Assembly: GCF_009914755.1 (NCBI RefSeq)
Contig: NC_060947.1
Reading direction: 5' to 3' (one strand)
Origin: the human T2T-CHM13v2.0 reference genome, Homo sapiens
Length of the DNA stretch: 64,000 bases
Each line of letters starts with the position of its first letter. Position 1 is the stretch's first letter. Of this stretch, positions 1,681 to 64,000 are shown piece after piece. The notes under the pieces are model-generated. The model was not told the DNA's origin. It was given only the letters and a program-made list of their open reading frames with translations, and did no database searches. A program made the translations under genes and the position numbers.

Positions 1681-2900
1681 CTATGTATTTGTATGATATT
1701 TTTTAAATAGAAAGGAAATAAAAACTGTTCTTTATGTGGAATCTGGCAGATATAAAACAAATTTTTTTTCAGACCCTAGCATTCTTCTGTAAGTCTTGTA
1801 CTCAAAGGCTTTGGAGGATCTGTGAGATTAGCAATGGTTTTCTGCAGTTCCCTGACCTCTGTCTGACAGTAACAACTATATCAGTCAACAAATATATATT
1901 AAATTATGGAATTACTTTGTCCTTCTTAGGATCCACGGAAAATTCTGTCTCTGCCACTTTAACAGTAAAAAGAAGTGGTAGGATAATGCACAAAATAAAA
2001 TAAAATTATTAGTTAATTTTCTCCCCATCCTTCAACTGCATTTGGTGACATGCCATAACATGAAAATGCCACCAAACCTCAGTCATGCACTGTGACAATA
2101 AGCACACACTTCCCTTTCCCTCCTCTTATACTTATCATTGCTCTCAATGACAGTAATGTTATTAAGTGAATGCCAATGTAATTTATCTCACAGGAAAGAG
2201 GAGGTGGAATATAGCACAGAGTAGCAATTAAGGAAAGCCTGCTATGGGCCAGACGTTTCCTAGAATTTCCCAGTCTTCTCACAAAAGTGATGTTATATTG
2301 GGCTCATTAATTCCATTTAAAAACGCAAAACTCAGTCTCATGAGTGTAAATAACTTCTCCATGGTTCTTTACTTATTGATTAAAATGGTCTGTTTATATC
2401 ATTGACCCACAGGGAGGAGACTGTATTAATTGAAATGAATTTCAACTACCAATCCCCCAAATCATAGAAAGGAAACAAGGGTGGGATTAGGGGAGGGAAG
2501 TTGCGTGTAAGGTAGGGGTAGAGGTGCTAAAAAGAAATGAGAGAATATTTTTGCATATGTGAGAAATCAGCAAAAAACAAAAAGCATACCAGTGGTCATT
2601 TCACTATATTTGCAGTGAAATATAATATACCTCATTTGGAATAATATGGGGAAATTGAAAAGCCATTATCAACAAACACAATACATTTAAAGGCATCAGA
2701 AAATGGGAGAAATAATCCAAACAGAATTTAATAGCATATAAGTAATATGACTGACATAGGCATGAATCTGACTAGGTATAATAGTAATGTTTAATTTTAT
2801 TAACAAATGATTCAAAAGTGAGAAGCAATGGCAAACATCCAAAGTTGTTTAACAATACTAAAATTAAAGACAAATAAAAAGATACATTGAGATATACAAA

Positions 2901-2992: not shown

Positions 2993-4129
2993 GTATGTAT
3001 AATGTGACTCAATTTTGAACAAAAATGTATTTGCACATATGAACATATAGCCTTGGAATTATATATAAACACACATAAAATATATCTGGAAAGTATATAT
3101 GAAAATACTATGAGTAGATAGCCTGTGGTAAGTCAGGCTTAAGATGAAACTATATGCTAATTAATGCATATATTTCCCCATTGTTTCAGGATTAATAGTG
3201 ATAGATAAAATTACAATAGTACAGGATGTACCTGGTAGGGAATGGAAGTTATAGAAATTTATCTTTATTGATATGAAATGTTGTCAAATATATATACATA
3301 CATATATTTAAATGAAAAAGAAGTTATACAGAACTTTTATAAAAATAGATCTGTGTATGCCTAATGTATTTGTCTCATAGTGTACACTTTCATATATTCT
3401 CATTCTTGTTCTCTGCTCCCTACCCTCATCACAGACACACGCACATGTTGTCAGCCTAGAGAGGGTCTGAAGGAAATATCCTAGCATGTGATTTCGTATC
3501 CAGATCTATGCCAGAATCACTCTTAATGTTTCCTTTCTATGTAAACATCTAGAAAGTTCCAGAACATTCTCACTGTTTGACTTTAACCATAGGGAAGTGT
3601 CTTCCTTTAACCTAAGCTTCTTTATAATTGGTTAAAGGAAGAATGTAGTTAGACATTGGTCACTTAATCATTCTGTGGAGTATGGAGTCGGTGAACGATT
3701 TCATCACTCCATTTTCCTTTGTTTCATGTGCCTTTCTGATCTCTGATTTTTATATTTTATGTTATTCATCCTCTTTATATCGCCATGCAGGTCTTGCTTT
3801 AAAAGGCATCAACTTTCCTTCCAGGTGGTGTCTAGAGTTGTTCTTTTGGATAAAAACTGTTCCCCGCATTCAAGTGACAATGAAGATAAATAAAAGTAAT
3901 TTGACATGTAATAGTGTATATTAGATTTTTAAAATTTAAGACTGATCCTAAACCTAGCTAATAATCATCTTCTGGATGTAAAGAACATCAGAATAAATGT
4001 CATTGTAGCCAATTTTTTTGTTATTGATAAAGGGTGTATTTCAGGTAGGCATTCTGAAAGAATTTAAGACAATTATAGAATGTGAAATTTTGTGCTAAGG
4101 GAAGAGGCTGAGAATTTAGCTTGATGATA

Positions 4130-4174
4130 TGTGTGTGTGTGTGTGTGTGCATGTGTGTGTGTGTGTGTGTGTGT
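4130..4174. repeat. (TG)n microsatellite, interrupted once
   Basis: Seen directly. Confidence 0.95.
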
Positions 4175-5032
4175 ACTTAAACCAAATCTAGGTGTTTGAA
4201 CTCTTCTTCAACAGAGCCACTCACCACAAGTCTTTTCTTCAGGAAAGAATGATTTTAAAATAACTCTATTCCAGGAGTGTTTGGGTGAGGGTCTGAACAT
4301 TTTTACCGGGCCTCGTATTCCAAAACTACTCAAAAGCACCACAGTATACTTAACTAATTATAACAGTTGGCATTTACTGAGTCCTGAGTATGATAAGAGA
4401 GAGAGTGGCCTACTTTAGGTGCTGCAAAGACTGATGGCTCTGATTATGGGATACACATCTGCTGACTCTCACTTTAGTGCTCAATCCAATAGACCTACTC
4501 CCCTGAGTATTGTGTCTTTTCAGCCTCCAGGGATAGCACAGAAATGAGGTTCCAAGAAGGGAAAACCTTGCAACTTTATAGCAAGTTTATATAGTAATGA
4601 TTCTGATAGTCCTTCCCCAAAGGGACCTATGACCATTTACTTAGCTAACTGTACACTGAGGGAAATTATTTATACATTTTTTAGGCCTTTGGACATAGGG
4701 TTCTAGCTGACCCTATGCCAACTAGATGCCTGAAGACCTGAAGCATCATCATGGCCCTCTATTGGAGGCCCTCACTGTGTTTCTACTGAGTCTGCTCAGG
4801 TCCGGTTCACTGTCATTCTAATGAACCCACAGACTAATCTGCTTGTCGTTTCCCTGATCCACAAATATATAATTAGAATGGATATACATGACAGATGATA
4901 GAATCTCCACATTTGTTCCTTAGCCTGTGAGGAGAAAGCTATCATTCTGGGGAAATTCAGTAGTAGCAGCTTCAGAGCTGCTACTATTCCAGCCAGTACA
5001 ATAAATAAAACAACCATAAAAAATCCTGTGTG

Positions 5033-5360
5033 GGCCAGGTGTGGTGGCTCATGCCTGTAATCCCAACACTTTGGGAGGCTAAGGTGGGCAGATCACCTAA
5101 GGTCAGGAGTTCAAGACCAGCCTGGCCAACATGGGGAAACCCCGTCTCTACTAAAAATACCAAAAAACAAACAAACAAAAAAAAACCGAGTGTGGTGGCA
5201 CACACCTCTAGCCCCAGCTACTCAGGAGGATGAGGCAGGAGAATCGCTTGAACTAGGGAGCTGGAGGTTGCAGTGTGTGGAGTTTGCACCACTGCACTCC
5301 AGCCTGAGTGACAGAGTGAGACTCCATGTCAAAAATAAATACATAAGTAAATAAGTAAAT
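5033..5360 (+). mobile_element. Alu SINE, AluS (Sx/Sz-like), inserted in ERVL
   Basis: GATCACCTAAGGTCAGGAGTTCAAGACCAGCCTGGCCAAC; TSD AAAAATCCTGTG (5019-5030/5361-5372). Confidence 0.95.
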
Positions 5361-6472
5361 AAAAATCCTGTGGGGAGTGGCAGAAATTTGTGCCACTCTT
5401 AATGAATTAAATGATGTAAGGGTAGTGATGTCTATCATTTTCCCATTTAATTCACTAGTCCAGAGAGATTATATAGAGGAGGAGAGTGAACTACCATAAA
5501 CACAAACAAGTATTAGCCCCGATGCAACTACTGTACTGGATGTGGTATTTTTGTCAGAACAGATGAACATGGTTTTAGGTACATTGTGTGTGGCCGCTAA
5601 TCTAGCAATGAATTATTTCCCATTACTGTCATGAAGAATGACCAAGTGCAGTTCACGTTCACATGCTTTGAAAAACAGAATCAATTTAGGGCTTTGCCCC
5701 AGAGATATGGTAACACTGCCACTGTTATAACGTAGTCTGAAGAGATATGGACTGTGTGGACATTCTGCAGAACATTGCTTTGATCCACTATATCGATAAC
5801 ACCACATCAATTGGATCAAATGAGAAAGAATTGGCAGGTACATTGAAGTCATCAGTAAAACACATGTGCTTCATAGGGTGAGGAATAAAATCATTGCAGA
5901 TTCATGTCAGTAGAGTTTCTAGGGGTCCAGTGGTTTTGGGCATATTGGCACAATCCTACAGAAACACTACACACATTGTAGTATTTTGTGTTGTCCACCA
6001 ATAAGTAGAAAACACCACACCTGATATACTGCTTCAGATTGCGGAGGCAATATATTCTAACTTGGGAATACTGCACTGATCCACTTACTGAGTGGCATGC
6101 AAGACTACCAACTTTGACTGGGGCTGAAAGCAGGAAAAGACTCTAAAGCAGGTCCAAGTTGGAGTGCAAGTAGCCCTGCTTCTTGGGCCATATGACCCAA
6201 CAGATCTTATACTATTAGAAGTGCATTTGGAGGAAATAGATTCCATGTGGAATTTATGGCAAGCTTCAACAGGAGACTTACAAATAATCTCTGATGTTCT
6301 GAATCAGGGCCATGCTATCTGCAGTGAAGAATTAGCATTCAAAAAAGATTCCCTGTCATGTTATTAGGCCTTAAAATACACAGAGCACCTGATTCTTCAA
6401 CATCAAGTGAACATATAGCCAGAATTTCCCATCATAAACTGGATACTGTCAGACTCACAAGATCATAAACTT

Positions 6473-9121
<2,649 letters not shown>

Positions 9122-55445: not shown

Positions 55446-56030
55446 TCTCTCTATATATATATGTATATTTTTTACTACCTGGGCAAATAGAGGTCCACTG
55501 TAATTTTATATTTACTTTTGAACAGAATCTATTGACATCTCATACATAAAGCACCACTGAAAAATTCCAGTCTATATTTGTGGAAGAATGAGAATTCGAA
55601 AGAATAATGTTATAAAAATAGTTACGACCTTACAGAACTTCTGGAAGGCTTTCCTAGAAAAATAACTACCGGAACTAACCTTTTAGTGAAGTAGTTATAT
55701 GGAACATTTTGAACATAATCCACTATTTTCCCTTGAACAAATTTAACTACAGATATATTAAACACAAAATTGTAATGTTTAGCTGATTATAGGAATGACA
55801 TCTTAAAATCAGCAGAATGCCACAAGTCAAAAATTAAAATAGAACAAACTTTACTGAGCTACTGTTACCCTCCTAATGATTTTCATACATATAAACTCTT
55901 ACACAGGGCTGGCATGTAGAAAATATTCAACAAAGAGTAGCCTTTTAAAAAGAAAAGAAAAGAAAAAAAGAAACTTTACTGGGCTATAGTTCATATACAT
56001 ATAATGTATACTATATATATATATATAATA

Positions 56031-56055
56031 GATGACTAAGGAAAAAAGCCTTTGG
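56031..56055 (-). terminator. Degenerate histone 3' stem-loop of the H2B pseudogene
   Basis: Minus strand CCAAAGGCTTTTTTCCTTAGTCATC versus consensus CCAAAGGCTCTTTTCAGAGCCACC; 36 nt after the stop codon. Confidence 0.65.
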
Positions 56056-56086
56056 ATTTTGCTACTCAAATCCTTCTGATGGCAGC

Positions 56087-56477
56087 TCATTTGTGGCTGA
56101 TGTACTTGATGACGGCCTTCATGCCCTCAGAACCAGTGTGAACAGCCACCTTTATGGGAAGCAGCAGGTGAAAAACAGTTTGAACCTCTCTGGAGATGAT
56201 GCCTGAGCACCTTTTGTAACAGACCAGCTAACAGGCCTTGTTTGGGATGCACTCATGGATGTCATCAAGTAAATAATCCAAGATGTTTGTGGGCTCTTAA
56301 TGAAATGCCTAAGTCAGCATGAACCTGCTTCAGAACATTGTGGGCATCGGTGGAGTAACTCTCTCAGTGGCCCCATCTCTTTCACTTCTTTTTCCCTACT
56401 GGGTTTTAGAGGCAGCTTTTTTTTTTTTTTGAATACTTCTTGCTAAACATAGGAAAGTCAGTAGAAGGTTCAGGCAT
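56087..56477 (-). pseudogene. Full-length, intronless, highly decayed histone H2B pseudogene (H2B.1/TH2B-like length)
   Basis: Manual translation with frameshifts: MPEPSTDFPMFSKKYSKK/AASKTQ*.../ESYSTDAHNVLKQVHADLGISLRA/TNILDYLLDDIHECIPNKAC*LVCYKRCSGIISREVQTVFHLLLPIKVAVHTGSEGMKAVIKYISHK*. This is collinear with H2B [24 protein letters not shown]...[35 protein letters not shown]. Confidence 0.92.
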
Positions 56478-56542
56478 GATAGAAGTACCTTTCTAGTGCC
56501 TTTGAAAAATGAGAATGGCCACTGATGACAAGGTGGGGCCCA

Positions 56543-56564
56543 GTTATAGGGTCTGTATTCAAAT
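56543..56564 (-). promoter_or_regulatory. Relict H2B-box: octamer-like element plus TATA
   Basis: Minus strand ATTTGAAT-ACAGACCC-TATAAC (octamer ATTTGCAT with 1 mismatch, 8-nt spacer), with the TATA about 65 nt upstream of the ATG. Confidence 0.7.
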
Positions 56565-57067
56565 GAAGTGTTGGGTAAACTCAATATTTGATCAGACAAT
56601 ATGCAGTGAGGGAAAGCCTGTCAATAAACCACACCATTTTAGATGTGATTGAATATTCCTCCTACTTTGGATGAGTCAATTAGAAGGCAAGAAGCCTAGA
56701 AGTTTCCTGTGACCTTCACTAAAAGCACATTGCAAAGATACCCCTACAGCAGCAACATTGTAGAGATGTCAGCTTCAGTCCCTTGAAAGATCCTTACCTC
56801 TGTATAACTGATGTCCATAATGCCAGAGGAATTATGCTGGCTACATTTGGGCCATTTGTCCTCCATCCCCAATCCACAGTTGTTTAGGTCCCAAGCCACC
56901 TTGACTTAAGGAGGAATACTCTGACTTGGGGAAACGTATTGCTTCTGGAAAACAAAGGACCTAGTTGACCAACCACTGCCTCTGGTTCTCACCAAAAACC
57001 TCACTGGATTGGAAAAAGGAGAAATGGCAAAATCCAGTCTCAAAACAGACAACACAAACAAAAATGG

Positions 57068-57264
57068 AGATATATATCTATATGTATATCTTTATCTATG
57101 TCTATATCTATCTACTCCATATACACAAAATATATATGTATATATATACTATATATGTGTGTGTGTGTGTATATATATATACACTATACATGTGTGTGTG
57201 TATATATATATATACACTATATATGTGTGTGTGTGTGTGTATATATATGCTATATATGTGTATA
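57068..57264. repeat. Compound (TA)n/(TG)n microsatellite
   Basis: Seen directly; sits at the TA target site of the adjacent Tigger. Confidence 0.95.
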
Positions 57265-58756
57265 CATTGCTCAATGAGGGGGGACGTTCTGAGAAATGCC
57301 TTGTTAGGTGCCTTTGTTGTGCCAACATCATAGAGTGTACTTACACAAACCTAGATAGTATAGCCTACTACACACTTAGGCTGTATGCTATAGCCTATTG
57401 TTTCTAAGTTACAAACCTACACAGCATGTTACTGTACTGAATACTGTAGGCAATTGTAATAAAATAATAGGTAGTTATTTATTTAAATATATCTAAACCT
57501 ACAAAAGGTACAGGAAAATACAGTATAAAAGATTACAACATGGTACACTTGTGTGAGATACTTAGCATGAATGGAGCTTGCAGGATGAGAAGTCACTCTG
57601 AGTGAGTCAGTGAGTGCATAATATTGTAGGCAGTTGTAACACAATAGTAAGTATTTGTGTCTCTAAACATATCTAAACCTAGAAAAGGTACAGCAAAATA
57701 CAGTACAAAAGATAGAAAATGGTACACTTGTACAGGGCACTTACCGCGAATGGAACTTACAGACCTGAAAGTTTCTCTGGGTGAGTGGTAAGTGAATGAG
57801 TAAGTGGTAAGTGAATGTGAAGGCCTAGGACATTACTGTACACTGCCATAAACTTTATAAACACTGTACACTTAGGCTAAGCTGAATTTATTTTCAAATG
57901 TCTTTCTTCAATAAAAGCTTACTGTAACTTTATAAATTTTAAACTTTTTGACTTTTATAATAACACTTACCTTAAACACAAACACATTGTACAGTTGTAA
58001 AAATATTTTCTTTCTTTTTATCCTTATTTTATAAGCTTTTTTTCTAGTTTTAATTATGTTTTAATTTTAAACTTTTTGATAAAAATGAAGACATAAACTT
58101 ACACATTAGCCTAGGCCTACACAGGGTCAGGATCATCAATATCACTGTCTGTCACCTCCACATCTTGTGCCACTGGAAGGTCTTCAGGGACAATAACATG
58201 GATGGAGGTGTCTTCTATGATAACAATGCCTTCTTCTGGAATAGCTCCTGAGGGATCAGCCTGAGGCTCTTGAGGAGATATCACTCTTTTCAGGAATATG
58301 TCCAAGATTGTTTGCTTGGTTTGTTTCTTTTTGTCATCATAGATTTGCTTGTAGACAGATAATGCACCATGCACATTCTTCTCCATTAATGAAAACCTTT
58401 TGGTGTTGGGGTCCATGTTTTCAAACTTTCTATGAAGCTTGTTGGGGTCTGTAAAATCTTTTTCTAAACCCTTTACTGTAAATTTTCTTGGGAGTTCTTC
58501 TTCTTTTTGTTCTCCTGTAATTTCTTGCCCCTTTATGCATCCTTATTCAAGTTTCAACAACTGCTCACTAGTCAATTCATCAGAAACCACCTCTGGGAGC
58601 TCCTCAGTGTTATTCTTATCCACAGGCAGGTTAAAGTTGTTTGCCATCAGCTACGGTGTCACAAAGTGATAGCAATTTTTCAGCTTCATTATAATCTTAT
58701 GAGACCACTGTTGTACACGTGGTCTGTCATTGACTGAAACATCTTTATGGCACATG

Positions 58757-58760
<4 letters not shown>
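57265..58760 (-). mobile_element. Tigger3 (Golem)-like TcMar DNA transposon, internally deleted
   Basis: CGTTCTGAGAAATGC...CATCATAGAGTGTACTTACACAAACCTAGAT end, CATGACTG terminus, and a transposase C-terminal peptide in ORF 58117-58416 (MDPNTKRFS...KKKQTKQTILDIFLK). Confidence 0.9.

Positions 58761-58787
<27 letters not shown>
58759..58787. repeat. (TG)n microsatellite
   Basis: Seen directly. Confidence 0.95.
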
Positions 58788-58790
<3 letters not shown>

Positions 58791-58919
58791 CATACATAAA
58801 TCTTTAAACATATATCAAGTTCAAGATTGTTTTCTTGACAATACTTAGGTCCTAGAAAAATACCTGAAACATGAAAACTGTTGGCAGGAAAAAATTATTA
58901 AATTATACCTCTAAGTAAT

Positions 58920-59540
58920 CTCCTCAGGGAGAAAGAAAAGATTAATATAATAGAAACTATGTTAAAATAAAAGGGATACTCCTCTAAAATCTATGATAAT
59001 ACATTCAAAAAATATTGATAAAATGTATGAATTTGTGGAAAAAGCTAACACCTCTCCCCATACCCTGAAAGACTAAGAAGAATTGAAGAAATTAAGGTAA
59101 TTAATGAGCTACCATCACAAATGTCCAAGCTTCCAGGTATGTTTTCTGACAGACCATTAAGGAATGGATATTTCTACTGCTAATGAAATGGTTCCGACTT
59201 ATGAAAAAAAAATCAATTTTTTATTTAAAGAAAATAAAATATGATGATAAAACATACTGAAGAGAGCATGTTTTAAAAGTTCCTATAAATCATATTTATA
59301 AATGATGACACAATCCATCAGAATATATTAGCAATAAAATTTGATTTCTCACTAAAAGATGAACATTAAAGGACCAACCAGGATCCATAAAAAATACAGA
59401 AATTGTTTAGTATTGAATAAAATACAAACACGATTCACTTTATGGCATTAAGATAAAAGAGAACATCTTGGCATAATTTCAATAGATGCTTCAAATTCCT
59501 TTGCTAATATAATGAGTTAGAAAATGTTTGTTTCATGTTG
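58920..59540 (+). mobile_element. Very old L1M ORF2 fragment
   Basis: A-rich, with a diverged ATAATTTCAATAGATGC (IISIDA) block; boundaries uncertain. Confidence 0.55.
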
Positions 59541-59553
59541 AAATAATCGTATT

Positions 59554-59840
59554 AGCTGGGAATGGTGGCTCACACCTGTAATCCCAGCACCAGCACTTTG
59601 GGAGGCAGAGAAAGGAGGATTCCTTGAGTTCAGGAGTTCAAAAGCAGTCTGAGCAATATGACAAGAATCCTTCTCCACAAAAAATAAGATGGTGCACACC
59701 TGTGGTCCCAGCTTCTCAGGAGACTGAGGTGGAAGGATAGCTTGAACCCAGGAGGTCAAGTGTGCAGTGAGCCATGTTTGTGCCACTGCATTCCAGCTTG
59801 GACTACAGAGCAAGACCCTTTCTCAAAAAAGAAAAAAAAA
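59554..59840 (+). mobile_element. AluJ
   Basis: GAGGATTCCTTGAGTTCAGG and CTGTGGTCCCAG J-type features; degenerate TSD AATAATCGTATT/AAGAATAGTATT. Confidence 0.9.
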
Positions 59841-59958
59841 AAGAATAGTATTATCATCATTAGAGTCAGGATTCAGGACAAATAAGCCATCTCATCAGGA
59901 AATTATTGATCATTATTCTAGAATATTGGAGAAATCATTTAAAAGAATTTGGAAAAGG

Positions 59959-60012
59959 ATATTGCTGCCCAAGGGGACTGAGAAAAATGGCCTCAAAATC
60001 ATCTGCAAGTGC
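59959..60012 (+). pseudogene. Histone H2A C-terminal remnant
   Basis: ILLPKGTEKNGLKIICK-tgc aligns without gaps to H2A.1 VLLPKKTESHHHKAQSK-stop; a histone stem-loop follows 46 nt later. Confidence 0.72.
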
Positions 60013-60053
60013 TACGTGACTGACTTATACTTCTGGAACAAAATTTTGGAAAA

Positions 60054-60099
60054 CCAAAGACTCTTTTCAGAGCCATGCATATAATCAGAGAAAAGCTGT
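60054..60099 (+). terminator. Histone 3' stem-loop plus histone downstream element (U7 site)
   Basis: CCAAA-GACTCT-TTTC-AGAGCC-A (15/16 to GGCTCTTTTCAGAGCC; 60059-60074), then GAAAAGCTGT at 60090-60099 (HDE consensus AAAGAGCTGT). Confidence 0.85.
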
Positions 60100-60764
60100 T
60101 CATAAGTTCTAAAAAACAAAAAATGGTGTTTTGCTGAGTCACTTAATTTCTACTGGCTGTTTGAAAGTGCTAATACTTGTCAATATGCTGCACCAGTATT
60201 TTCCCCATTTTTTTAATATACTGATTTCATATATTACTGTATTATATGAGATAGCATTTTAACATACTGAATCCATTGTGACAGTTGTGTTGCGTTTTGG
60301 CTATTTTCCATTTGCAAATTCATAAAGAAAATAAAAGGATTAGCACATTAAGTTTTAAAATGCACCATAATTGAACTATAGAATGAAGACTGAGATGACA
60401 GAGGTGATTGAGATAGATGAAACCTGGCAAAGAGAGAGGAAAATTGAGGCTTGATATTATAGATTAAAAGGGAAAATTAATACATCTGATTGTTAACCAG
60501 TGGAAGAATAGGAAAAAACATTAAGTGAGCTCTGGGAGTGGGTGAATGGGAGAATAGGGACTAACTGTGCAATTGTGTGCTAATGCTGTGACTTAATGAC
60601 AAAAGGTGAAATAAGAAAAACACCTTTACCACAATAAATAAAATATTCTAAGTGTCAACCCAAGGAAAACAATATAATAATAAAAGAGTATTAATTTTTT
60701 CAACAGGACTTAAATTAATAGACTCAAATAAATACATAACCAAGGACCCCCAAACAGCACATAA

Positions 60765-64000
<3,236 letters not shown>

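What the first reader, a model, noticed from the sequence alone, without database searches (positions are those of the whole stretch)
56031..60099. Fossil orphan head-to-head H2B/H2A histone gene pair
Seen: a full-length decayed H2B on the minus strand with its own promoter and stem-loop relics, and an H2A C-terminus with stem-loop and HDE on the plus strand pointing away from it. Known: replication-dependent H2A and H2B genes occur as divergent pairs sharing a promoter of roughly 300 bp and normally sit in clusters. No other histone gene is visible in the preceding 56 kb. Inference: this is an unprocessed, once-functional bidirectional unit outside or at the edge of a cluster, possibly a lost histone-variant locus that is still intact in other mammals. 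Its annotation status is unknown to me.
Basis: partly seen in the sequence, partly recalled or inferred. Interest (0 to 1): 0.8.

Follow-up and report, generated by a model that had tools for sequence, protein, structure and literature searches.

The report
Dead H2B gene with H2A stub
This is a long-dead copy of a histone H2B gene with the tail end of a histone H2A gene beside it, and it is one of several ancient X-chromosome copies of a unit that also gave rise to the testis histone genes H2BW1 and H2BW2.

Summary
A full-length, decayed H2B lies on the minus strand (CDS 56087-56477; nhmmer E 5.8e-49). It keeps relics of its own TATA, octamer and CCAAT elements (56507-56607; E 2e-5). On the plus strand at 59959-60101 sit the last 16-17 H2A codons, a histone stem-loop and an HDE-like element (nhmmer E 1e-7 to 1e-9; Rfam Histone3 31.2 bits, below its cut-off of 34, E 6.6e-6). 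H2A codons 1-114 were found nowhere.

The pair is not an orphan. The non-repeat DNA between and around the two relics matches only other Xq22 loci. One is a collinear fossil twin 1.6 Mb away (68.3% identity). The others include the H2BW1, H2BW2 and H2B.W-pseudogene loci, which carry the same truncated H2A relic. So H2A was already truncated before this locus arose. H2BP8's private substitutions are flat across codon positions, so nothing shows it was ever functional here.

RefSeq annotates the H2B half as H2BP8. I found the H2A relic and the link to H2B.W neither in that table nor in print. Orthologues could not be examined. Interest is moderate.

The parts
55454..55889 (-). Flank downstream of the H2B 3' end, shared with the paralogues. 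It is part of the duplicated unit.
   Evidence: blastn: window 55454-55889 = L023 3153-3575 at 64.8% identity. The same L023 stretch also matches downstream of the H2B.W genes in L025, L027, L028 and L029.
56028..56086 (-). H2B 3' UTR with a decayed stem-loop relic. The 5' flank, 5' arm and loop are recognisable; the 3' arm is lost.
   Evidence: The nhmmer H2B profile alignment runs to model position 439. There is no Rfam hit and no stem forms on folding.
56087..56477 (-). H2B pseudogene CDS (RefSeq H2BP8). It is full length from ATG to TGA and has a canonical-type MPEP N-terminus. It is broken by frameshifting indels and stop codons.
   Evidence: tblastn E ~1e-17. nhmmer E 5.8e-49. 60.3% nt identity to the canonical consensus, with indels of +10, -1 and +1 nt. 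One frame across 56087-56479 holds 5 stops.
56507..56607 (-). Relic of the H2B-proximal half of the canonical H2A-H2B intergenic promoter: TATA, an octamer with one mismatch, and a degraded CCAAT.
   Evidence: nhmmer against a profile of 10 canonical intergenic regions, positions 31-130, E 2e-5. The paralogue L023 keeps positions 31-229 (E 1.1e-6).
56608..57086 (.). Family-specific spacer, part 1. It is not histone-like and not a dispersed repeat.
   Evidence: The genome search finds only chrX paralogues: 6 of 6 first-look candidates, all on C23. Collinear with L023 3960-4519 and with the H2B.W loci.
57087..58815 (.). Insertion private to this locus: TA/TG microsatellites and an old dispersed repeat at 57280-58745.
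   Evidence: Absent from the collinear paralogue L023. The repeat has 7282 first-look candidates genome-wide, and the 40 scored copies are 71-80% identical. Pfam finds no domain in its ORF.
58816..59554 (.). Family-specific spacer, part 2.
   Evidence: The genome search finds only chrX paralogues: 5 of 5 candidates. Matches L023 4540-5287 at 67.6% identity. Homology in the H2B.W loci runs to about 59226-59418.
59555..59838 (+). Alu insertion private to this locus.
   Evidence: Rfam Metazoa_SRP match at 59555-59826. Absent at the corresponding point of L023.
59839..60790 (+). Block that carries the H2A relic. It is shared with L023, L025, L026, L027, L028 and L040.
   Evidence: nhmmer with the two-paralogue profile gives E 1e-44 to 1e-67 for window ~59856-60498 in those loci. 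The genome search finds only chrX copies.
59959..60012 (+). H2A C-terminal coding relic. Codons ~114/115-130 read ILLPKGTEKNGLKIICK, and the stop has mutated to TGC.
   Evidence: nhmmer H2A profile from position 345. 19 of the first 23 aligned nt match (alignment printed). ORF translation. Canonical C-termini for comparison.
60052..60079 (+). Histone 3' stem-loop relic with its flanks. The second stem pair is broken (A.C).
   Evidence: Rfam RF00032 at 60054-60099, 31.2 bits, E 6.6e-6. 25 of 28 nt match the profile consensus (alignment). Folds to 4 bp at -2.2 kcal/mol, z -0.6.
60086..60099 (+). HDE-like purine-rich element, about 10 nt downstream of the stem-loop flank.
   Evidence: Inside the nhmmer and Rfam matches. 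A homologous element appears in L023, L025, L027 and L028 in the 5-way alignment. That it is the U7-binding HDE rests on recalled consensus.

Best explanation
The locus is a non-functional, unprocessed fossil of a replication-dependent-type H2A-H2B gene unit. It is one member of an ancient Xq22 family of segmental copies.

The inferred history has four steps:
1. A DNA-level copy of a canonical H2B gene with its promoter, plus an H2A gene, arrived on the X.
2. H2A lost codons 1-114, leaving only its last 16 codons, stem-loop and HDE. About 1.1-1.3 kb of unrelated spacer lay between the promoter and that stub.
3. The whole unit (H2B 3' flank, H2B, promoter, spacer, H2A stub) was then copied several times within about 2 Mb of Xq22. 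One lineage became the H2B.W genes. In those loci the H2A-stub block sits about 1.65 kb downstream of the gene on the same strand.
4. The window copy (H2BP8) and its collinear twin at chrX 102.02 Mb decayed neutrally. The window copy later received microsatellites, an old dispersed repeat and an Alu. These stretched the interval from 1.45 kb to 3.48 kb.

Shown by the calls: the homologies, the collinearity, the truncated H2A in all copies, and the flat codon-position pattern. Inferred: the order of events, that the head-to-head layout is the ancestral one, and that the founding event copied a divergent pair. I see no sign of a present function. The ORF is broken, the octamer and CCAAT are mutated, and the stem-loop is mispaired.
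For: Identity of the parts:
- H2B CDS and 3' UTR, E 5.8e-49.
- Promoter relic, E 2e-5.
- H2A 3' end, E 1e-7 and 1.1e-9, and Rfam Histone3 E 6.6e-6.

Family membership:
- Spacer segments 56608-57055 and 58800-59555 and block 59843-60790 match only chrX places in the whole genome.
- L023 is collinear over 2364 aligned nt at 68.3% identity and lacks the window's repeat insertions.
- A profile of window + L023 aligns in one piece from the H2B 3' UTR through the spacer to the H2BW1 locus (window 56039-59342 = L028 5315-3581, E 3.3e-123). It finds the relic block in L025, L026, L027, L028 and L040.
- The 5-way alignment shows the same truncated H2A end, decayed stem-loop and HDE-like element in L023, L025, L027 and L028.

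H2A body absent:
- tblastn and nhmmer on the window.
- Canonical and short H2A proteins against both fossil units.
- The 2-locus and 8-locus profiles against 12 canonical loci. Beyond H2B and its promoter they hit only H2A 3' ends, best E 8.6e-9 and 2.1e-8.

Not a retrocopy:
- The promoter and an HDE-like element are present.
- The A-rich run after the HDE aligns to ordinary sequence in the paralogues.

Neutral decay: private substitutions are 21 of 71, 19 of 79 and 19 of 57 by codon position.

Age:
- Paralogue identity of 68.3% gives a Jukes-Cantor distance of about 0.41 (my calculation).
- The private dispersed repeat has copies only 71-80% alike, so the locus predates an old insertion.

The H2B tree groups H2BP8 + L023 with the H2B.W clade, apart from canonical H2B, TH2B and H2BK1 (SH-aLRT 85.1, UFBoot 67).
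Against: - The tree support for H2BP8 + L023 + H2B.W is only moderate (85.1/67). Support for H2BP8 + L023 as sisters is weak (46.6/41).
- H2BP8 has a canonical-type N-terminus, not the H2B.W extension.
- In 5 of the 7 relic-bearing places the layout is not head-to-head. In L025, L026, L027 and L028 the relic lies downstream in tandem. In L040 the block is solitary. So the window's divergent layout could be secondary.
- The canonical promoter relic was detected only in the window and L023, not in the H2B.W loci.
- Rfam did not detect the relic stem-loops of the paralogues at E <= 0.05. Only L029's own H2B.W stem-loop scored, at 25.6 bits.
- The window stem-loop is below Rfam's gathering score.
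- The origin of the 1.1-1.3 kb spacer is unexplained.
- No orthologous sequence from another species was examined, so ages and polarity rest on divergence within one genome.
Confidence: 0.68

Rival explanations
1. The head-to-head layout here is secondary. The ancestral X-linked unit had the H2A stub about 1.65 kb downstream of H2B on the same strand, as in the H2BW1, H2BW2 and H2B.W-pseudogene loci. An inversion of the ~2.2 kb segment (H2B 3' flank, H2B, spacer) in the common ancestor of the window locus and L023 produced a look-alike of a divergent pair.
For: - Four H2B.W loci (L025, L026, L027, L028) have the tandem layout. Only two loci (window, L023) have the divergent one.
- Spacer homology stops at about 59226-59418 and block homology starts at about 59856-59866 in all H2B.W-type loci. 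This fits rearrangement breakpoints there.
- Even the divergent copies have 1.45 kb, not ~0.66 kb, between the H2B ATG and H2A codon 115.
Against: - The four tandem loci are close relatives of one another, forming one clade at 99.8/100. L025 and L026 gave identical scores at mirrored coordinates, as a duplicated pair would. Independent lineages therefore count roughly 1 against 1.
- The canonical pair, taken as outgroup, is divergent, with the H2A side of the promoter facing the spacer.
- H2B.W-type loci carry extra copies of a family-specific segment (L023 6100-6640) around the gene. This looks like the more rearranged, derived state.
Confidence: 0.2
2. This is a lost histone-variant locus. 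H2BP8, or the ancestor it shares with L023, encoded a working X-linked H2B for some time, and orthologues are still intact in other mammals.
For: - Derived changes shared by H2BP8 and L023 relative to the canonical consensus are richer at third codon positions: 10, 6 and 18 at positions 1, 2 and 3. This would fit a period of constraint before they split.
- Raman et al. 2022 (PMC8857922, passage read) report H2B.W copies just outside the syntenic location in cow and sheep.
- The sister lineage, H2B.W, is functional.
Against: - The third-position excess is also expected from synonymous change in the canonical genes used as reference.
- Changes private to H2BP8 are flat across codon positions.
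- The H2A partner was already truncated in all copies.
- No orthologue was examined.
Confidence: 0.1
3. The two relics are unrelated. A 5'-truncated retrocopy of an H2A transcript, or a chance match, happens to lie 3.5 kb from an H2B pseudogene.
For: - Only 16-17 H2A codons are present, and the protein-level match alone is not significant (E 10-18).
- An A-rich run follows the HDE-like element.
Against: - DNA-level E values are 1e-7 to 1e-9, and Rfam gives E 6.6e-6.
- The element downstream of the cleavage site is included.
- The A-rich run aligns with non-poly(A) sequence in four paralogues.
- The same stub travels with the H2B unit in six other places.
Confidence: 0.02

Closest known systems
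H2B.W gene loci on Xq22 (H2BW1, H2BW2, H2BW3P/H2BW4P; Raman et al. 2022, PMC8857922; Seal et al. 2022, PMC9526256)
   Same: - Same chromosome band.
- Contiguous homology from the H2B 3' UTR through the CDS and about 1.2 kb of upstream spacer (E 3.3e-123 to the H2BW1 locus).
- Same truncated H2A stub block.
- The H2B CDS groups with the H2B.W clade (85.1/67).
   Different: - H2BP8 lies about 2 Mb proximal to those loci.
- It has a canonical-type MPEP N-terminus and no N-terminal extension.
- It keeps a recognisable canonical TATA/octamer promoter relic, which the H2B.W loci lack.
- The stub is upstream and divergent rather than downstream and tandem.
- It is a dead gene.
Canonical divergent H2A-H2B pairs of the replication-dependent clusters (chr6 and chr1 loci L009-L015, L020-L022)
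   Same: - Opposite strands, head-to-head.
- H2B-side promoter elements.
- H2B and H2A 3' ends of the stem-loop type, with an HDE-like element.
   Different: - Canonical intergenic distance is 303-381 bp in 10 of 10 pairs. Here 130 bp of promoter relic is followed by unrelated spacer.
- H2A codons 1-114 are absent.
- Both genes are broken.
- The location is outside any cluster.
The collinear fossil twin at chrX 102.017-102.020 Mb of this assembly (locus L023)
   Same: Same order and orientation of all parts at 68.3% identity: H2B pseudogene, promoter relic, spacer, H2A stub with stem-loop and HDE-like element.
   Different: - L023 lacks the dispersed repeat, microsatellite and Alu insertions.
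- It keeps more of the intergenic promoter (positions 31-229).
- It keeps the H2A stop codon.
- Its H2B CDS relic is shorter (profile positions 34-337).
In-situ and variant histone pseudogenes such as H2BC19P/H2BC20P, H2BL1P and H2AQ1P (Seal et al. 2022, PMC9526256, passages read)
   Same: These are unprocessed histone gene copies that died where they lay, and are named as pseudogenes.
   Different: Those are single genes with intact orthologues known in other mammals. For H2BP8 no orthologue was examined, and its partner H2A stub is not in the RefSeq table supplied.

Membership tests
Histone H2B gene (pseudogene of replication-dependent type) | Full-length similarity to the H2B coding sequence | tested here: met
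   Residues 1-59 and 62-126 matched, E ~1e-17. DNA profile positions 1-439, E 5.8e-49.
Histone H2B gene (pseudogene of replication-dependent type) | Open reading frame intact | tested here: not met
   One frame across the gene holds 5 stops. Indels of +10, -1 and +1 nt.
Histone H2B gene (pseudogene of replication-dependent type) | H2B promoter with TATA, octamer and CCAAT upstream (an unprocessed copy) | tested here: met
   Profile of 10 canonical intergenic regions, positions 31-130, E 2e-5. The octamer has one mismatch and the CCAAT is degraded.
Histone H2B gene (pseudogene of replication-dependent type) | 3' stem-loop | tested here: inconclusive
   The alignment runs through the stem-loop region. 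Rfam gives no hit and no stem folds.
Divergent replication-dependent H2A-H2B gene pair | H2A and H2B on opposite strands, 5' ends facing | tested here: met
   H2B on the minus strand at 56087-56477. H2A 3' relic on the plus strand at 59959-60101.
Divergent replication-dependent H2A-H2B gene pair | Shared intergenic promoter of about 300-380 bp | tested here: not met
   Canonical spacing is 303-381 bp in 10 of 10 pairs. Here only positions 31-130 are recognisable, followed by 1.1-1.3 kb of unrelated spacer that L023 also has.
Divergent replication-dependent H2A-H2B gene pair | Complete H2A coding sequence | tested here: not met
   Only the last ~49 nt (profile positions 345-393) are present. 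No match to codons 1-114 in the window, in L023 or in family profiles.
Rfam RF00032 Histone3 stem-loop (H2A relic) | Score at or above the gathering threshold of 34 bits | tested here: not met
   31.2 bits, E 6.6e-6.
Rfam RF00032 Histone3 stem-loop (H2A relic) | Six-base-pair stem with a four-base loop | tested here: not met
   The second pair is A.C. Only 4 pairs form, at -2.2 kcal/mol, z -0.6.
H2B.W locus family (X-linked) | Homology of non-coding flanks with the H2BW1/H2BW2 loci | tested here: met
   Single alignment of window 56039-59342 to L028 (E 3.3e-123), plus block matches. The flanks match only chrX places.
H2B.W locus family (X-linked) | CDS groups within or next to the H2B.W clade | tested here: inconclusive
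   Sister position with support 85.1/67. The H2B.W clade proper, at 99.8/100, excludes H2BP8.
H2B.W locus family (X-linked) | Extended, diverged N-terminal tail | tested here: not met
   H2BP8 starts MPEPSTD..., aligned from canonical codon 1. The H2B.W ORFs have longer, different N-termini.
H2B.W locus family (X-linked) | Position between RAB9B and SLC25A53 (Seal et al. 2022) | not testable with these tools
   No gene map of that region was available. The window lies about 1.9-2.1 Mb proximal to the H2B.W loci by assembly coordinates.
Processed (retrotransposed) pseudogene | No promoter; ends in poly(A); target-site duplications | tested here: not met
   The promoter relic is present. An HDE-like element is included. 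The A-rich run aligns to ordinary sequence in the paralogues.

The most novel reading that the evidence does not exclude
One replication-dependent-type H2A-H2B gene pair, copied as DNA onto the proto-X, founded both kinds of X-linked germline histone variant. Its H2B became H2B.W. Its H2A, before being truncated in the copies that survive here, gave rise to the short H2A variants (H2A.B/L/P/Q). The window locus and its twin would then be the least-changed witnesses of that founding pair. Both papers leave room for this. Raman et al. 2022 could not resolve how H2B variants arose. Molaro et al. 2018 could not tell whether the short-H2A ancestor was X-linked (passages read). Against it: 10-kb flanks of four short-H2A loci share nothing with the unit, and the stub keeps a long canonical C-terminus that short H2As lack.
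Probability: 0.06. Interest if true: 0.75.

Novelty: new member of a known kind. Interest (0 to 1): 0.4.

Why it matters
Raman et al. (2022) left open how the mammalian H2B variants arose from replication-dependent H2B.

The two fossil loci keep three marks of an unprocessed replication-dependent-type copy: a canonical H2B promoter relic, a canonical N-terminus and an H2A 3' end with its processing signals. They also share long non-coding flanks with the H2B.W genes.

Three things follow:
- H2B.W probably arose through a DNA-level copy of a canonical-type unit, not through retroposition.
- The family is wider than the one conserved location described so far.
- There are concrete landmarks (the stub, the spacer, the breakpoints at about 59.4 and 59.86 kb) that can be traced in other mammals to date the events.

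For annotation, the H2A stub and the paralogy of H2BP8 with H2B.W could be recorded. For present-day biology the locus is most likely inert.

Tried and rejected
- **Pfam scan of raw frames across the relics.** The tool does not take translations with stops. I used tblastn and nhmmer against reference genes from the same genome instead.
- **Search for the H2A body.**
  - I ran tblastn with 5 H2A and 4 H2B reference proteins over the whole window.
  - I ran H2A and intergenic+H2A DNA profiles.
  - I ran canonical H2A, H2A.X and three short H2A proteins against both repeat-excised fossil units.
  - I ran the 2-locus and 8-locus family profiles against 12 canonical loci.
  - Nothing turned up beyond the last ~16 codons.
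  - A weak pair of matches at homologous places (L023 unit 850-921, E 0.05; window 56906-56941, E 17) was not confirmed by any profile. I treat it as noise.
- **Link to short H2A variants.** 10-kb regions around H2AB1, two H2A.L-like genes and one H2A.L-like pseudogene share no flank with the unit.
- **The label 'Tigger transposase' for the 57280-58745 repeat.** This was my recollection. Pfam found nothing in its ORFs. Only 'old dispersed repeat' is shown.
- **Rfam on six paralogous loci.** It did not detect the stub stem-loops there.
- **Folding.** It gave no support for a functional stem-loop.
- **The ~2 kb match between window 61854-63858 and several paralogous loci.** This is a young high-copy repeat with copies 97-98% identical genome-wide. 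It is not part of the unit.
- **L019 (chrX 101.06 Mb).** It is an H3 pseudogene and is unrelated to this unit.
- **Literature.**
  - Full-text searches found no mention of H2BP8, of an H2A remnant beside H2B.W genes, or of this paralogy. The two hits for 'H2BP8' are unrelated chemistry papers.
  - Searches of the held supplements of PMC9526256 (2 files) and PMC8857922 (1 file) also found nothing.
  - Subscription papers, for example the original H2BFWT description, and unheld supplements may bear on this.

Full report
**What is there**

The window is chrX 100,378,001-100,442,000 of T2T-CHM13 (the hub's table; confirmed).

The minus strand carries a complete but broken H2B gene:
- tblastn with canonical H2B proteins, translated from chr6/chr1 loci of the same genome, gives two HSPs covering residues 1-59 and 62-126. 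Identity is 45-49% and E is about 1e-17.
- A DNA profile of 13 human H2B genes matches 56477->56028 with E 5.8e-49. The match runs from the ATG through the stop and the 3' UTR into a decayed stem-loop.
- Against the canonical CDS consensus the copy is 60.3% identical (229 of 380 aligned nt) and has indels of +10, -1 and +1 nt.
- One frame across the gene holds five stops.

Upstream, 56507-56607 matches positions 31-130 of a profile of ten canonical H2B-H2A intergenic regions (E 2e-5). It has a TATA, an octamer with one mismatch and a degraded CCAAT. The H2B copy is therefore unprocessed.

**The H2A piece**

On the plus strand, 59961-60101 matches H2A gene profiles from position 345 to about 483. 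That covers the last ~49 coding nt, the 3' UTR, the stem-loop and a purine-rich HDE-like element (E 1e-7; 1.1e-9).
- Rfam's Histone3 model hits 60054-60099 at 31.2 bits and E 6.6e-6, just under its gathering score of 34.
- The H2B profile matches the same place only over the stem-loop (E 5e-4), so the coding part is specific to H2A.
- In frame it reads ILLPKGTEKNGLKIICK, then TGC where the stop should be. Canonical H2A ends VLLPKKTESHHKAKGK.
- The stem has an A.C mismatch at its second pair. It forms only four pairs and is no more stable than shuffles.
- H2A codons 1-114 were found nowhere in the window.
- No H3 or H4 similarity is present either.

The caveats are that the H2A part is a 16-17 codon stub and that the H2B stem-loop relic shows only by alignment.

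**The interval between the relics**

The H2B ATG and H2A codon 115 are 3.48 kb apart.
- 57280-58745 is an old dispersed repeat. It has 7282 first-look candidates genome-wide, and the 40 scored copies are 71-80% identical. It is flanked by TA/TG microsatellites.
- 59555-59838 is an Alu (Rfam SRP match).
- The remainder (56608-57086, 58816-59554, 59839-59960) is neither a histone sequence nor a dispersed repeat. Whole-genome searches with these segments find only a handful of other places, all on chrX between 100.95 and 102.50 Mb.

**A family of X-linked copies**

I fetched those places.
- L023 (chrX 102,014,000-102,023,999) is a collinear twin. It has the H2B 3' flank, an H2B relic (nhmmer E 8.8e-39), a promoter relic reaching intergenic position 229 (E 1.1e-6), the spacer, and the H2A stub with stem-loop.
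- L023 is 68.3% identical to the window over 2364 aligned nt. It lacks the window's dispersed repeat, microsatellites and Alu.
- Removing those private insertions still leaves 1.45 kb between the H2B ATG and H2A codon 115 in both loci. A canonical pair has about 0.66 kb.

A profile built from the two twins then finds long homology in every H2B.W locus.
- In the H2BW1 locus (L028; ORF identified), window 56039-59342 aligns in one piece with E 3.3e-123.
- L025, L026, L027 and L029 behave likewise.
- The block 59856-60490 that carries the H2A stub is found in L025, L026, L027 and L028 (E 1e-44 to 1e-51).
- The block also occurs once alone, in L040 (E 1e-67).
- L024 keeps only the spacer.

A five-way alignment shows the same truncated H2A end in L023, L025, L027 and L028, with the lysine-stop codons still legible in three of them. 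It also shows a decayed stem-loop and the HDE-like element in those four loci. The A-rich run after the window's HDE aligns with ordinary sequence there, so it is not a poly(A) tail.

An 8-locus profile searched against 12 canonical loci hits nothing beyond H2B and its promoter except H2A 3' ends (best E 2.1e-8). It never hits the H2A body.

Rfam did not detect the paralogues' stub stem-loops at E <= 0.05. The window's copy is the best preserved.

**Layout**

In the window and L023 the stub lies upstream of H2B on the other strand (head-to-head). In L025, L026, L027 and L028 it lies about 1.65 kb downstream of the H2B.W gene on the same strand.

The two layouts differ by an inversion of the ~2.2 kb segment that holds the H2B 3' flank, H2B and the spacer. 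The breakpoints lie near window 59.4 kb and 59.86 kb.

I favour the head-to-head layout as ancestral, for three reasons:
- The canonical pair is divergent, and the H2A side of its promoter faces the spacer.
- The tandem loci form one recent clade.
- The tandem loci carry extra copies of a family-specific segment around the gene.

This is inference. The opposite polarity keeps about one chance in five.

**Relationships and decay**

An IQ-TREE analysis of H2B nucleotides 97-381 used 14 sequences: seven canonical, TH2B, H2BK1 exon 2, four H2B.W-type, L023 and H2BP8.
- H2BP8 + L023 sit next to the H2B.W clade, apart from the canonical genes. Support is moderate (85.1/67).
- The pairing of H2BP8 with L023 is weak (46.6/41).
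- The flank homology is the stronger evidence.

Substitutions private to H2BP8 are spread evenly over codon positions, 21 of 71, 19 of 79 and 19 of 57. Those of L023 are likewise even, as expected for neutral decay since their split. The third-position excess among changes the two share (10, 6, 18) could reflect earlier constraint. It could equally reflect synonymous drift in the canonical reference genes.

The 68.3% identity between the twins corresponds to a Jukes-Cantor distance of about 0.41 (my calculation). The private dispersed repeat is itself old. Both fit an origin around or before the eutherian radiation, the age Raman et al. give for H2B.W (PMC8857922, passages read). The rate calibration is from my own knowledge and was not computed here.

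**Comparison with what is known**

RefSeq annotates the H2B half as H2BP8 (the hub's table). The H2A stub is not in that table.
- Seal et al. 2022 (PMC9526256; passages; two held supplements searched) place all H2B.W paralogues at one conserved X location. They do not mention H2BP8.
- Raman et al. 2022 (passages; one held supplement searched) could not resolve how H2B variants arose. They note stem-loops at H2B.W genes but no H2A remnant.
- Molaro et al. 2018 (PMC5880237; passages) derive the short H2As from one X-linked gene. They leave open whether the earlier ancestor was X-linked.
- I tested a link to short H2As through flanks and found none.
- Full-text searches found no description of this paralogy.

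**Verdict**

The finding is real and its anatomy is as described. But it is not an orphan, and nothing shows that it worked as a pair at this site.

It is one decayed copy of an ancient X-linked unit: H2B with a canonical promoter, plus a pre-truncated H2A stub. That unit also gave rise to the H2B.W genes.

The H2B half is already annotated. The stub, the twin locus and the tie to H2B.W appear to be unrecorded. They are of moderate interest for the origin of germline histone variants.

The decisive test is to compare the orthologous regions in other mammals, which could not be done with the tools at hand.

Noticed in passing
L023 (G000:C23:102014000-102023999), about 3150-6600: A collinear fossil twin of the whole unit: H2B relic on the minus strand at 3571-3882, promoter relic at 3941-4127, and the H2A stub with stem-loop at about 5365-5560. 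It has none of the window's repeat insertions. I do not know its annotation status.
   Followed up: yes
L029 (G000:C23:102341000-102350999), 4675-5076, minus strand: An intact 133-codon H2B.W-like ORF with its own stem-loop (Rfam 25.6 bits at 4599-4644). It is the earliest branch of the H2B.W clade in my tree. Whether it is one of the loci named as pseudogenes (H2BW3P/H2BW4P) could not be checked.
   Followed up: partly
L040 (G000:C23:102450000-102459999), 4250-4909, plus strand: A solitary extra copy of the H2A-stub block lying between the H2BW2 and H2BW1 loci. No H2B was detected within 10 kb.
   Followed up: partly
L024 (G000:C23:100948500-100958499), about 4697-5858, minus strand: A partial copy of the unit's spacer only, interrupted by an Alu. 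No H2B and no stub were detected.
   Followed up: partly
L019 (G000:C23:101058500-101063000), about 1860-2280, minus strand: An H3 pseudogene with stops and a stem-loop relic, 626 kb distal to the window. It is unrelated to the H2B unit.
   Followed up: partly
L028 (G000:C23:102461500-102471499), 4756-5646 and about 5660-5700: In this assembly the H2BW1 frame reads on through its own stem-loop sequence. A short ORF segment about 350 nt further downstream looks like the annotated C-terminal exon as I recall it. This would imply a 3' intron whose donor lies just before the canonical H2B C-terminus. It lies in the flank homologous to window 55454-55889.
   Followed up: no
window 57060-57280 and 58745-58800: TA/TG microsatellites on both sides of the dispersed repeat give a series of sub-threshold Rfam microRNA matches (mir-297, mir-3149, mir-466 and others). 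All are far below their gathering scores and are low-complexity artefacts.
   Followed up: no
window 61854-63858: A young high-copy repeat with copies 97-98% identical across the genome. It marks the right-hand limit of the ancient unit at about 60.8 kb.
   Followed up: yes
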